DNA of 64,000 bases from Phallusia mammillata (taxonomy: Eukaryota). Made by a program: the position numbers. Location of the stretch: the NCBI GenBank assembly GCA_965637545.1, contig OZ281497.1:14818001-14882000 (forward strand), written 5' to 3'. Positions 31,862-34,800 of this stretch are shown here, one piece after another; the stretch's first letter is position 1, and each line of letters begins with the position of its first letter.

Positions 31862-34800
31862 TAACCTAGTATATGTGTACTGTTATTTGGCTGACACTAA
31901 TTTGCTAACGCTGAGACATGGACCGAGATTTATGAGACGCAACTGCGCTAGGTTGAAAACAAAAATTGTTCAAATAATGAAAAGGTGAACTTTTGTATGT
32001 GGTTGATTTAAACAAGTCAAAACGTCTATAAAGCGAAATATATTTATGCGACCAAAGTCAGTTCTGTGGCCAAATAAAGGCCTGGTTCACCATTGCACAT
32101 AAATATCTCAGTTTCTCATCACGAAAACAAAAGAAAAAACATACTAACCTTTTGCTCGCAAATTTGAATACAAGTTTATCTGTCACGAACATGGCCATTA
32201 AATGTCTACTGGACTTCGTCCCTCTTTTGAAAGTGTCCCTTGTGTTTTTGCATTCATTTCTCTCGTCTGGATCAACTTCAACTTTAACCGGTAACTTGCA
32301 TGACAACCTTGATTGTCTCCGCTTGCCTTCGTGTTGCGCCTTTGTAAAACCCTTAGAGTAAAAGACTTTTCGGTTTCTTCATCTACCAAAACCGCGACGT
32401 CGCATCTCCGCGGAAGCAAAGAACGCTCGCATTCTGAATCACGTTCATCCGTTCGTGGTTCGAATCTCACCAAAGCCAACCCTGAAGGCGACCGTTCTTT
32501 TAAAGCCCCCATAAGCCCACTGAAGAAATCCCTTGCTCCTAGCCATAGCGACACATGCTTGTCCAACTATAGCGGCAACGAAGACGACGTAGAATTGTTA
32601 TCCAGTGTGGTTGACTGCTTTGCAAATCTGCGTGGCGCTTATAGTCTCCAAGCTGATCTTGACATCTTGACACGTTCGCTTGGATCCGACGAGGAAAGAA
32701 ATTGTTTAAACTGGCTCGAGGAAGACTTGCCTTCGCTACCGCACGACCAGTGTGTTGTTGTTACTTGCATTGCAAGATGCTGGCTGTTGTGCTTGAAACT
32801 GTTTGTACATGAGTGTTGGATGTTATTTTTAGGGATATACTGTTAACATTCGGTCTTGATATTTTTATTTTTTGGCTGGTTTTGAGAACAGGTGACAATT
32901 AAGTTTAAACAACCATTTAAGTACTGGGCCCTGAGGGTTTTATACTTAAGCGTGAATACTCTAAAATCCCTATAAAAAATCTATACGAATCACCCATTAA
33001 AATTTATTGTTGTGCATGCAAAGTCATGATCAAAAACTTTGTAACGCTTCTGTTATAATTTACTTCTTCATACATGAAAAAAGTCAATTGTGTAAACAAC
33101 AAAAACTATTTTATTTTGTCAGGGTGAAGGAACTTGCTGTGGACGACGGAGCTGACGAACCTTTCAAGAAGCGACCGGCTGTTGGTGGACCCTTGGAACG
33201 GTTGGACGAATCTCCACAACACGTTAGCATTCATTCGCCCAATAACAGCGACCTTGCGTTGATCAGCTCCATGTGTGTAAGTACTTGAAACTTAGTTTAC
33301 TTCATGAAATGATAGCAAGTTGTCACAACGACAACGGTGAACACTTCTAAACTCTATCCCAGAACTCTGTTTTCCATCGTATATCTAATTGCACTTTGCA
33401 TAAAAGCATAAAAACAACACAAAAAAGTGGATTGTTGAAACGATGACAATGAAATGTTACGCAATGAACTTGATTTCTCAGTTTTTTCTATGAAGTTTCC
33501 AAAACTGTCGCAAAGTCAAACGGTGTTTGCTTTGCTGCACTTCTAAACATAAGATCTGTTAATAAGCAGATGTTGAATGGGCAATGACATGTGTTAACAA
33601 ATCCCAATAAAGCTTACACAGGACATCCAGGAACACGCAGACACACAAACATGTTTAAGTGACAAGTGATACCTTTTCTGCACTTTTAAATTCACAGTTG
33701 AGGCTTAGCCATGTTTAGGTTACTTGTAAAGATATCATGTCGAGTTTAATATGATACCATTTTGATAAAAAAGTCTAGCAATTTAAAGTAATTTGACTAG
33801 CGATTTGAAGATCCAAAAATCACAAGAAAAAATGTCTTGAAGGTTAAATATATACACTGGGACCAATATTTCAGTACTTCGCTTTTTTATGCCGCCATAA
33901 TAGCTCCAATGCTATTTTAAACCTTAATGTGAGATATAGTCATTGCTCACGGAAAGACTAATTTGGAATTTGGTGATATACCTAAAAACACGAAAGTGTA
34001 ATGGTGTTGGTGTATGCAAATTCTATAATTACACACTAAAATATCTGCTGAATGGAAATATTAAATCTATAGCTAACACCATTAAAAAAGTATTGAACTT
34101 GCCCATCACTTCTGCAGGAGAACGAATTGTCACGTGAGATGTATGAGGTGCATCAAACTGTCACCAGTCTACAAGAAATTGAAGAGGAAACCGTTGAATG
34201 TCACCGCAACTTTCTCCAAGGGGTAAGTCGTTTTAACTACGCCCGAACCGCCCTTTTCTACAAAACCACATCGCTGATTGATGATACCGCATTAGAATTT
34301 GTTTTTGACTACATCTGTTGTGGAAAATGACTCTTTTGAAACGAGTTTTGCCTAATATAGGGCGTCACCTGGTGGCTTAGGATTTGGTCGCAAAGTGTAA
34401 AATGGTAACGATTTGTCAGATTGTCGCAAACTAGTCGGGTCAGATGTCCCAACTGTTGCTAATTTGTGTTGAACGCTGTCTTTTGGCACACCAAGAACTG
34501 TCGAGATGTTTGCTGTATTCTCCCCACAATAGAATGACCTCGTTTGAAAACTCACACCACCGCACCCAAAACCTCAGGTTACTCTAATTCAAACACAAGG
34601 CGTGGCATGGCGTGATGAGAGAAACTATTAGATGCATTGTTACGTCATAAGATGCCTCAGTTTCAATGCACTATGCAAGTTAATTTGTGGCACAGATATT
34701 GGTCAAATCATTTCGAAATTAACCTGCTACAATTGCCTGCTGATTCTGTATGATTTTTAAACTCGTTTTCCATCTATGTTTGAAAACTGTGGGATTGTTT

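What the first reader, a model, noticed from the sequence alone, without database searches (positions are those of the whole stretch)
32357..32846. Hidden KIF2 alternative exon that duplicates the motor's last helix start (RVKDF versus RVKEL)
Within the intron after YADR, an exon starts in the same phase and restarts the motif as RVKDFSVS, then runs Ser/Arg-rich and acidic. A GTGTGT donor, the same hexamer used by TESK exon 7 in this window, makes it a 131-aa in-frame cassette. Read-through instead gives a truncated isoform without the dimerising tail. From memory, vertebrate KIF2A has a roughly 38-aa cassette at this junction beginning RVKEFGIS. If so, this would be a chordate-ancestral splice event with a much longer insert here.
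Basis: partly seen in the sequence, partly recalled or inferred. Interest (0 to 1): 0.65.

Follow-up and report, generated by a model that had tools for sequence, protein, structure and literature searches.

The report
Likely optional exon in Kif2 gene
An intron of a microtubule-shortening kinesin gene (Kif2) holds a 393-base stretch that looks like a real, probably optional, coding exon adding 131 amino acids just after the motor; mouse Kif2a has a shorter optional exon, but no RNA data or sequences from other species were available to confirm this one.

Summary
In the 1262-nt intron after the last motor exon of a kinesin-13 (Kif2) gene, an AG at 32355-32356 opens an exon at 32357. It is in the same phase as the constitutive next exon (33123) and repeats the motif: R-VKDF against R-VKEL. 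The frame stays open to TAA at 32844-32846. A GTGTGT donor at 32750 gives a 393-nt, 131-codon, frame-preserving cassette.

This is more than chance. The codon score (0.309 bits/codon) lies in the range of the window's real exons and above all 538 intron windows and all 2000 shuffles. It changes sign at 32358 and again near 32770. The start motif behind an AG occurs only twice on the window's + strand, at these two acceptors. The donor is the best of 30 GTs in the ORF.

Both splice sites are weak, as is usual for regulated exons. The acceptor follows a 123-nt AG-free zone. The donor is followed by one of the most GU-rich stretches in the window.

Not shown:
- RNA use of the exon.
- Conservation in other species.
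- That the 37-aa Ser-rich mouse Kif2a exon 18 sits at the same junction; this remains recall.

The read-through "truncated isoform" has no coding signal. Verdict: a probable real alternative exon; chordate ancestry is untested.

The parts
31682..31860 (+). Kif2 coding exon 13, the last motor-domain exon (ECIRAM...LNTLRYAD + AG of the split Arg codon)
   Evidence: Pfam Kinesin PF00225 E=2.8e-19, profile positions 264-322 of 327. PDB KIF2C/KIF2A/Klp10A chains E down to 1.7e-29. Donor CAG|gtaacct.
32234..32354 (+). AG-free, pyrimidine-rich zone in front of the cassette acceptor; holds a TGCATG at 32297-32302
   Evidence: The previous AG lies 123 nt upstream. Only 13 of 2961 AG-to-AG gaps on the + strand are this long. 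It is longer than for all 23 modelled acceptors, whose median is 29 nt and maximum 121 nt. Pyrimidine fraction is 0.67 over -50..-3 against a median of 0.52. TGCATG position.
32355..32356 (+). Proposed 3' splice site AG of the cassette
   Evidence: cccttag|AGTAAAAG. PWM score -3.03 bits, second lowest against the 23 modelled acceptors, which range from -3.77 to 12.85.
32357..32749 (+). Proposed cassette exon, 393 nt, 131 codons, phase 2 in and phase 2 out: (R)VKDFSVSSS...LPSLPHD(Q)
   Evidence: Translation. Codon score 0.309 bits/codon against 0 of 538 intron windows and 0 of 2000 dinucleotide shuffles. 20-codon tiles are positive only between 32358 and about 32770. GC is 0.491 against flanks of 0.381 and 0.319. 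No repeat family overlaps it.
32750..32755 (+). Proposed 5' splice site GTGTGT
   Evidence: CCA|gtgtgtt scores 3.76 bits, the best of 30 GT dinucleotides inside the ORF, and is in the one phase that fits exon 14. It lies at the low end of the modelled donors, which range from -0.74 to 11.26.
32750..32849 (+). GU/UGU-rich start of the downstream intron; candidate splicing-enhancer region (inferred). Read in frame it gives the Cys/Leu/Val-rich 'read-through tail' up to TAA 32844-32846
   Evidence: G+T is 0.70; 14 of 6390 100-nt tiles of the window reach this. There are 11 TGT; 8 of 6390 tiles reach this. Codon score -0.47.
33013..33018 (+). Second TGCATG in the same intron, 264 nt after the proposed donor
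   Evidence: The window's + strand has 23 TGCATG (0.36 per kb); 2 lie in this 1.26-kb intron. Weak on its own.
33123..33276 (+). Constitutive exon 14: (R)VKELAVDDGADEPFKK...LISSMC, start of the tail
   Evidence: Acceptor ttttgtcag|G scores 11.13 bits leave-one-out. The frame of the 17-exon model is open from ATG 23740 to the stop at 37317-37319.

Best explanation
32357-32749 is a genuine coding exon of the single-copy-type Kif2 (kinesin-13) gene that spans 23740-37319 on the + strand. It is most likely an optional (cassette) exon. When it is skipped, exon 13 joins exon 14 and the motor's last helix reads ...LRYAD-R-VKEL..., followed by the usual tail. When it is included, the helix is finished in nearly the same way (R-VKDF), 131 residues follow, and the original VKEL segment comes after them, now read Q-VKEL. 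The tail that carries the dimerising and regulatory C-terminal part is thereby moved 131 residues away from the motor without any frame change. The insert has two halves. The first is a Ser-rich, basic, probably disordered stretch with three R-x-S sites and one S-P-x-K site. The second is an acidic, Leu-rich stretch weakly predicted to be helical. Inferred mechanism: weak splice sites, a distant branch point (long AG-free zone) and a GU-rich element just after the donor make inclusion depend on tissue-specific RNA-binding proteins. The insert would then tune phosphorylation-dependent regulation or partner binding at the motor-tail hinge. What is shown: sequence anatomy, phase, coding statistics and splice-signal ranking. 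What is inferred: actual splicing, optional use, regulators and protein function.
For: The codon log-odds score is 0.309 bits/codon. The 24 modelled exons score -0.01 to 0.49 when each is left out of training. Intron windows have mean -0.456, sd 0.133 and maximum -0.151, so 0 of 538 reach the cassette. 0 of 2000 dinucleotide shuffles of the cassette itself reach it. The + strand frames 1 and 2 score -0.22 and -0.15. The score changes sign at both proposed boundaries. The start motif behind an AG occurs only at the cassette and exon 14 acceptors on the window's + strand, and in 3 of 2000 shuffled introns. The donor is the best of 30 GTs in the ORF and is in the only phase exon 14 accepts. The AG-free zone is 123 nt, matched by 13 of 2961 gaps. 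The flank after the donor is GU-rich, matched by 14 and 8 of 6390 tiles. There are three reasons to think the exon is optional rather than constitutive. First, both sites are weak while exon 14's acceptor is strong. Second, both junctions restore R-VK[DE]-hydrophobic, which only matters if both are made (inference). Third, my skipped model is 725 aa, while an ascidian Kif2 construct used in embryos ends at residue 726 (PMC5640700, figure-legend passage); this counts only if the window comes from that or a close species, which I could not test. The mouse precedent is a 37-aa Ser-rich optional exon 18.
Against: There is no RNA evidence of any kind. No relative of the 130-aa peptide was found in Pfam (best E=0.13, below cut-off), in PDB sequences (best E=1.7) or in the ESM Atlas (no usable hit), so conservation is unshown. 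The acceptor PWM score is -3.03 bits and the donor lacks G at -1 and A at +3. Nine other GTs and AGs in the intron score as well or better as isolated sites. The codon and splice models were trained on only 1054 codons and 23 introns of my own unverified gene models. The antisense frame 0 also scores 0.20, so part of the signal is base composition. The AlphaFold single-sequence model is of low confidence (mean pLDDT 53.6). The 725 versus 726 aa match is circumstantial.
Confidence: 0.6

Rival explanations
1. The stretch is a real exon but is constitutive in this species: every Kif2 mRNA carries the 131 codons, and the downstream VKEL is a relic.
For: The same coding and phase evidence as for the best explanation. 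Nothing in the DNA alone proves skipping.
Against: Both splice sites are weak next to a strong exon 14 acceptor. The skipped model of 725 aa matches the 726-aa ascidian Kif2 construct within one residue, though that is circumstantial. Retention of a canonical helix end at both junctions is unexplained if only one is used.
Confidence: 0.1
2. The stretch is a decaying or never-spliced pseudo-exon: a diverged tandem copy of exon 14 that still looks coding but is no longer, or not yet, used.
For: The acceptor PWM is weak and no homologue was found. There is weak collinear similarity of cassette residues about 38-88 to exon 14; 3 of 1000 shuffles reach the semi-global score.
Against: A 177-codon open frame, a frame-specific codon score at the level of real exons along all 130 codons, and sharp score changes exactly at the AG and GT are not expected after long neutral decay in a genome with 35% GC introns. 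The similarity to exon 14 is not specific: exon 16 gives a local alignment reached by 1 of 300 shuffles, and there is no DNA-level similarity (160 of 300 shuffles reach it).
Confidence: 0.15
3. The exon serves as an alternative last exon. The donor at 32750 is not used, translation runs on to TAA 32844-32846, and the product is a Kif2 without the C-terminal tail.
For: The frame is open for 32 more codons. An ATTAAA lies at 32996.
Against: The tail scores -0.47 bits/codon, and the tiles from 32778 and from 32838 score -0.63 and -1.02. Its Cys/Leu/Val-rich reading is what a GU-rich intron gives. There is no AATAAA between 32701 and 33200.
Confidence: 0.07
4. The exon is mutually exclusive with exon 14: an internal phase-0 donor at 32588 (GAC|gtagaat) joins ...SGNEDD directly to exon 15 at 34118.
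For: That donor scores 2.46 bits and has the phase exon 15 needs. Tandemly duplicated exons are often mutually exclusive (general knowledge).
Against: The coding signal continues for 54 more codons after 32588, with tiles of 0.17 to 0.32. The 32750 donor scores higher.
Confidence: 0.04
5. The stretch is an exon of another gene or a remnant of a mobile element inside the intron.
For: There is an antisense open frame, 32198-32566, of 122 aa, and antisense frame 0 has a codon score of 0.20.
Against: No repeat family overlaps it. Neither strand has a Pfam hit. The sense peptide has no Met before the GU-rich tail. The phase and motif match to Kif2 is very unlikely by chance.
Confidence: 0.04

Closest known systems
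Mouse/human KIF2A alternative exon 18 (called exon 17 in one human study)
   Same: It is an optional in-frame exon of a kinesin-13 gene that encodes a Ser-rich, disordered stretch in the C-terminal third of the gene. [quoted passage not shown] The GU-rich flank found here is the kind of sequence such proteins bind; that binding preference is general knowledge and was not tested.
   Different: It is 37 aa against 131 aa here. The acidic, Leu-rich second half found here is not described for it. Identity of the intron position, of the restart motif and of the sequence could not be checked: the position is not in the passages read, its sequence is only in a figure that is not held, and recalled sequence may not be used.
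Ascidian Kif2 (Phallusia mammillata, Ciona intestinalis), Costache et al. 2017, PMC5640700
   Same: Ascidians have a single Kif2 gene, and the construct numbering runs to residue 726 (passages). My skipped model has 725 residues.
   Different: The paper does not mention splice isoforms: 'splice' occurs 0 times, and 'isoform' occurs once, in a cited title. Its sequences are in supplements and databases I could not open. Whether the window is from either species is unknown.
Neuron-specific cassette exons shared by tunicates and vertebrates (Agrin Z exons under Nova, PMC12445529)
   Same: It is a precedent that a regulated small-exon programme can predate the tunicate-vertebrate split (search listing and start of abstract only).
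   Different: It concerns a different gene and regulator. Nothing comparable has been shown for Kif2.
Alternative exons born by tandem exon duplication
   Same: The two neighbouring exons start in the same phase with the same VK[DE]-hydrophobic motif. There is weak collinear similarity of cassette residues about 38-88 to exon 14; 3 of 1000 shuffles reach the score.
   Different: The exons end in different phases (2 and 0). There is no DNA similarity. A comparably 'significant' local match to exon 16 (1 of 300 shuffles) warns that Ser-rich composition may be producing these scores.

Membership tests
Kinesin-13 (Kif2/MCAK) gene | Internal kinesin motor domain | tested here: met
   Three of the exons sent singly hit Pfam PF00225: E=1.3e-17, 1.7e-10 and 2.8e-19. 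The best PDB matches of exon 13 are KIF2C, KIF2A and Klp10A, with E from 1.7e-29 to 2.5e-27.
Kinesin-13 (Kif2/MCAK) gene | Class-specific KVD and KEC motifs (class assignment recalled) | tested here: met
   [11 protein letters not shown] in exon 7, and ...LALK|ECIRA across exons 12 and 13, were read from the ORF translations. That these motifs define the class is from memory.
Cassette (skipped) coding exon | AG acceptor, GT donor, and a length divisible by 3 with a phase that fits both neighbours | tested here: met
   AG at 32355-6, GT at 32750-1, 393 nt, phase 2 to 2; only exon 14 fits.
Cassette (skipped) coding exon | Open frame with coding-like codon usage bounded by the splice sites | tested here: met
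   0 of 538 intron windows and 0 of 2000 shuffles reach its score.
Cassette (skipped) coding exon | Transcripts both with and without the exon | not testable with these tools
   No transcript data are available. The only indirect hint is 725 aa (skipped model) against the 726-aa ascidian construct.
Orthologue of vertebrate KIF2A exon 18 | Same intron position and phase (directly after the motor's ...YA-x-R) | not testable with these tools
The position is not stated in the passages read.
Orthologue of vertebrate KIF2A exon 18 | Ser-rich, disordered insert | tested here: met
   25 Ser of 130 residues, 17 of them in the first 65. Residues 1-60 are coil in a low-confidence model. The mouse exon is described as 'rich in serine residues'.
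Orthologue of vertebrate KIF2A exon 18 | Similar length (37-38 aa) | tested here: not met
   131 aa here against 37 aa.
Orthologue of vertebrate KIF2A exon 18 | Detectable sequence similarity | not tested
   No tool gave me a vertebrate sequence that holds the cassette. The PDB KIF2A chains (2gry, 6bbn) end about 6 residues after the motor.
Tandem exon duplicate of exon 14 | Significant similarity to the neighbouring exon | tested here: inconclusive
   Semi-global protein score reached by 3 of 1000 shuffles; local score by 5 of 300. But exon 16 gives 1 of 300, and at DNA level 160 of 300 shuffles reach the score.

The most novel reading that the evidence does not exclude
An optional exon at the motor-tail hinge of kinesin-13 may already have existed in the common ancestor of tunicates and vertebrates. 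It would have been born by tandem duplication of the first tail exon, so that both splice forms finish the motor's last helix with R-VK[DE]-hydrophobic. It would be controlled by GU/U-rich-binding neuronal proteins of the ELAV or CELF type. In this lineage it would have grown to 131 residues by adding an acidic helical module, giving the single ancestral Kif2 a regulated long-hinge form long before KIF2A, B and C diverged.
Probability: 0.3. Interest if true: 0.6.

Novelty: new member of a known kind. Interest (0 to 1): 0.42.

Why it matters
Kinesin-13 activity is set by how the tail and neck fold back on the motor. An optional 131-residue, phosphorylatable spacer placed exactly where the tail leaves the motor would be a simple way to make two differently regulated depolymerases from one gene. 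In ascidians the single Kif2 drives unequal cleavage (PMC5640700), so a second isoform would bear on experiments done with one cDNA. If the exon is homologous to vertebrate KIF2A exon 18, whose function is still unclear, a single-gene invertebrate chordate would offer a cleaner system to learn what the insert does, and would date a neuronal splicing event to before the vertebrate genome duplications. If it is not used, the matter is only a gene-model detail.

Tried and rejected
- Homology of the cassette peptide: Pfam gave only VWA_3_C at E=0.13, below its cut-off. PDB sequences gave beta-glucuronidases at best, E=1.7, which is noise. The ESM Atlas gave no usable hit. The exon 14 peptide also finds nothing in the PDB at E<=10, although full-length KIF2C is there. 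The hinge is therefore too divergent for such searches, and silence says little.
- Structure: an AlphaFold single-sequence model had mean pLDDT 53.6 and pTM 0.29. That is too weak for a fold search, so none was run.
- Internal duplication of the whole tail: local alignments of the cassette to exons 15, 17, 4 and 5 were at shuffle level (108, 145, 195 and 123 of 300). I dropped the idea that the cassette is a copy of the whole tail.
- Literature on the exact position of the vertebrate cassette: not found. The published Development paper is not held. The search with length terms and the six-term search were badly posed and returned mostly irrelevant papers.
- Rfam over the whole window: 0 matches. 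Repeats in 31000-34500: none overlap the cassette.
- Left undone: the joined spliced protein was neither searched nor folded; exons were sent one at a time. No complex prediction was run because no binding claim is made.
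Full report
**What the window holds.**
The + strand from 23740 to 37319 carries a kinesin-13 (Kif2) gene. From stop-to-stop ORFs and a listing of AG/GT sites I built a model of 17 coding exons. Its frame is open from the ATG at 23740 to the stop at 37317-37319 and gives 725 residues (frame check).
- Three of the exons, sent singly, hit the Pfam kinesin motor model.
- Exon 13 (31682-31860) covers profile positions 264-322 of 327. The motor model therefore runs about five residues past the exon's end, into whatever is spliced next.
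- The best PDB matches of exon 13 are KIF2C, KIF2A and Klp10A.
- Searches were made exon by exon. The joined spliced protein was not searched or folded.

**The observation.**
- Exon 13 ends ...TAC GCC GAC AG|gtaacc at 31860.
- Exon 14 begins at 33123 behind a strong acceptor and reads (AG)G-GTG-AAG-GAA-CTT, that is R-VKEL.
- Inside the 1262-nt intron, an AG at 32355-32356 is followed by A-GTA-AAA-GAC-TTT-TCG-GTT-TCT, that is R-VKDFSVS in the same phase.
- The frame stays open from 32313 to the TAA at 32844-32846, 177 codons. Only seven ORFs in all six frames of the 64-kb window are as long or longer.
- GTGTGT starts at 32750, so 32357-32749 is 393 nt, 131 codons. It enters and leaves in phase 2, and among the downstream exons only exon 14 accepts that phase.
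- The peptide has 25 Ser in 130 residues. Its first half is Ser-rich and basic (net +6); its second half is acidic and Leu-rich (net -11).
Its seventh coding exon ends GAG|gtgtgtg at 50997, the only one of the three overlapping GTs there whose phase matches the single good acceptor at 52344. That is inference from phase, not RNA evidence. Pfam confirms only that this neighbour is a protein kinase; I did not test the name TESK.

**Is it more than chance?**
I scored codons with a log-odds table. It was trained on 1054 codons of the Kif2 and kinase exons against trinucleotides of their introns, with the intron in question left out.

| Sequence scored | Bits per codon |
|---|---|
| Cassette, reading frame | 0.309 |
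| Cassette, + strand frames 1 and 2 | -0.22 and -0.15 |
| 24 modelled exons, each left out of training | -0.01 to 0.49 |
| 538 intron windows of the same length | mean -0.456, sd 0.133, max -0.151 |
| 32 read-through codons after 32749 | -0.47 |

- 0 of 538 intron windows reach the cassette.
- 0 of 2000 dinucleotide-preserving shuffles of the cassette reach it, so the signal is not only base composition. Composition does contribute: the cassette's GC is 0.491 against 0.38 and 0.32 in the flanks, and antisense frame 0 scores 0.20.
- In 20-codon tiles the score is -0.50 just before 32358, positive (0.15 to 0.39) in every tile from 32358 to about 32770, and -0.63 and -1.02 after that. The coding-like stretch therefore begins at the proposed acceptor and ends near the proposed donor.
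- In shuffles of the intron, 1 of 2000 gave an in-frame AG..GT cassette as long as the longest observed.
- 3 of 2000 shuffles gave an AG followed in phase by VK[DE][FLIM]. On the whole + strand that pattern occurs at exactly two places, the cassette acceptor and the exon 14 acceptor.

**Splice signals.**
I built position weight matrices from the 23 modelled introns. This is a small, self-made training set.
- The donor CCA|gtgtgtt scores 3.76 bits. It is the best of the 30 GTs inside the ORF and the best of the nine in the right phase. It sits near the bottom of the real donors, which range from -0.74 to 11.26. Donors in this window are loose in general: gtctgt, gtgcgt and gtgtgt also occur in the model.
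- The acceptor scores -3.03 bits, second lowest against real acceptors, which range from -3.77 to 12.85.
- The matrix sees only 20 nt, however. Over 50 nt the acceptor region is more pyrimidine-rich than the median real acceptor (0.67 against 0.52).
- The acceptor AG is preceded by 123 nt without any AG, longer than for all 23 modelled acceptors. Only 13 of 2961 AG-to-AG gaps on this strand are that long. From general knowledge, long AG-free zones go with distant branch points and regulated exons.
- The first 100 nt after the donor are 70% G+T with 11 TGT. Among 6390 tiles of the window, 14 and 8 reach these values.
- This GU-rich run also explains the odd Cys/Leu/Val-rich 'tail' obtained by reading through the donor.
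- Two TGCATG hexamers lie in the intron, one 55 nt before the acceptor AG and one 264 nt after the donor. The window-wide density is 0.36 per kb. This is suggestive at most.

**What it most likely is.**
I think this is a real Kif2 exon and most likely an optional one (confidence about 0.6).
- The argument for optional use is indirect. The sites are weak beside a strong competing acceptor.
- The design finishes the motor's last helix with R-VK[DE]-hydrophobic whether or not the exon is included.
- My skipped model has 725 residues, while the ascidian Kif2 construct used in embryos by Costache et al. is numbered to residue 726 (PMC5640700, passages).
- The length match counts only if the window is from that or a nearby species, which I could not test. 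The paper does not mention isoforms, and its sequences are in supplements I could not open.
- On inclusion, 131 residues separate the motor from the tail. The first ~60 are Ser-rich with three R-x-S sites and an S-P-L-K site and are coil in a low-confidence model. Residues 64-122 are predicted as four short helices at pLDDT 50-67.
- I infer a phosphorylation-tunable spacer or docking module at the motor-tail hinge. This is not shown.

**Rivals.**
| Rival reading | Confidence | Main point |
|---|---|---|
| Constitutive exon | 0.1 | Nothing in the DNA alone proves skipping |
| Pseudo-exon left by duplication of exon 14 | 0.15 | See the similarity results below |
| Alternative last exon by read-through | 0.07 | No coding signal after 32749; only ATTAAA at 32996; no AATAAA in 32701-33200 |
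| Mutually exclusive use via the phase-0 donor at 32588 | 0.04 | Coding signal continues 54 codons beyond it |
| Foreign exon or mobile-element remnant | 0.04 | No repeat, no Pfam hit, no Met |

On the duplication idea, the results point both ways.
- Exon 14 aligns collinearly with cassette residues about 38-88 at a score reached by 3 of 1000 shuffles.
- But exon 16 gives a local match reached by 1 of 300 shuffles.
- The DNA shows nothing: 160 of 300 shuffles reach its score.
- Ser-rich composition may be driving these scores, so I call the duplication test inconclusive.

**Comparison with what is known.**
- Mouse Kif2a has an optional exon 18 of 37 Ser-rich residues whose inclusion is promoted by neuronal Elav-like proteins (bioRxiv 10.1101/2020.05.07.081216, passages; PMC8652244, passage).
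- In human neurons the corresponding exon is preferentially included (PMC12308531, passages).
- Both are Ser-rich optional inserts in the C-terminal third of a kinesin-13, and the GU-rich flank here is the kind of sequence such proteins bind.
- Whether the vertebrate exon sits at this very junction and restarts the same motif could not be checked. The passages do not give its position, the figure with its sequence is not held, the published version is not held, and a text search for part of the quoted motif found nothing.
- The insert here is 3.5 times longer and has an acidic helical half with no described counterpart.
- I found nothing in print on ascidian Kif2 isoforms. 'KIF2A' with 'Ciona' gave 6 papers, and only Costache et al. 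and its preprint are relevant.

**What stayed unchecked.**
- No eukaryotic genome or transcript resource was on hand.
- Paper supplements were closed.
- Conservation, orthology and expression are therefore all open.

**Verdict.**
- Novelty, if real: a new member of a known kind, namely an optional hinge exon of kinesin-13.
- Interest is moderate. It would rise if the exon proves homologous to vertebrate exon 18.

Noticed in passing
window 27531-27825 and 27834-27921: Kif2 intron 5 holds 1.9 tandem copies of a 158-nt unit (91% matches), directly followed by an A-rich AAAGAAAA-type run of about 70-90 nt. It looks like a short interspersed or tandem element with an A-rich tail.
   Followed up: no
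window 50998-51097: The intron after the kinase gene's seventh coding exon, the other GTGTGT donor, is also G+T-rich (0.66 in its first 100 nt). That is the highest among the 19 modelled introns of at least 130 nt. GU-rich donor flanks may be a recurring feature of weak donors in this genome.
   Followed up: partly
window 28994/28995 and 48891/48892: Other non-consensus donors appear in the models: CAG|gtctgt (Kif2 exon 8) and AAG|gtgcgt (kinase exon 4). Only 9 of 23 modelled donors have gtaag, so the 5' splice-site consensus looks loose here.
   Followed up: partly
window 4807-5157 and 6144-6494, minus strand: Two ORFs carry DOMON-domain matches (E=5.5e-07 and 2.5e-05, both below the Pfam cut-off). 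They probably belong to one gene with repeated DOMON domains, next to Ser/Thr/Pro-rich ORFs at 616-954 and 1901-2212.
   Followed up: no
window 12959-13417, plus strand: An ORF contains an exon matching the end of the RNA polymerase Rpb5 N-terminal domain (E=8.9e-04, below cut-off).
   Followed up: no
window 56006-57163 (+), 59126-60322 (-), 62777-63484 (-): These are very long open frames (385, 398 and 235 aa) with Ser-rich, low-complexity translations and no Pfam match. The first is presumably the kinase gene's C-terminal exon; the others are unassigned.
   Followed up: no
window 40033-40338, minus strand: An ORF contains MGSICGKGSAKEAANEE..., which has a Gly at position 2 and is Ala/Glu/Gln-rich, so it may be an N-myristoylated acidic protein. 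It has no Pfam hit.
   Followed up: no
window 32198-32566, minus strand: A 122-aa antisense open frame overlaps the cassette's first half. It has no Pfam hit, and antisense frame 0 of the cassette scores 0.20 bits/codon. I read it as a mirror effect of a stop-poor, GC-richer coding stretch.
   Followed up: partly
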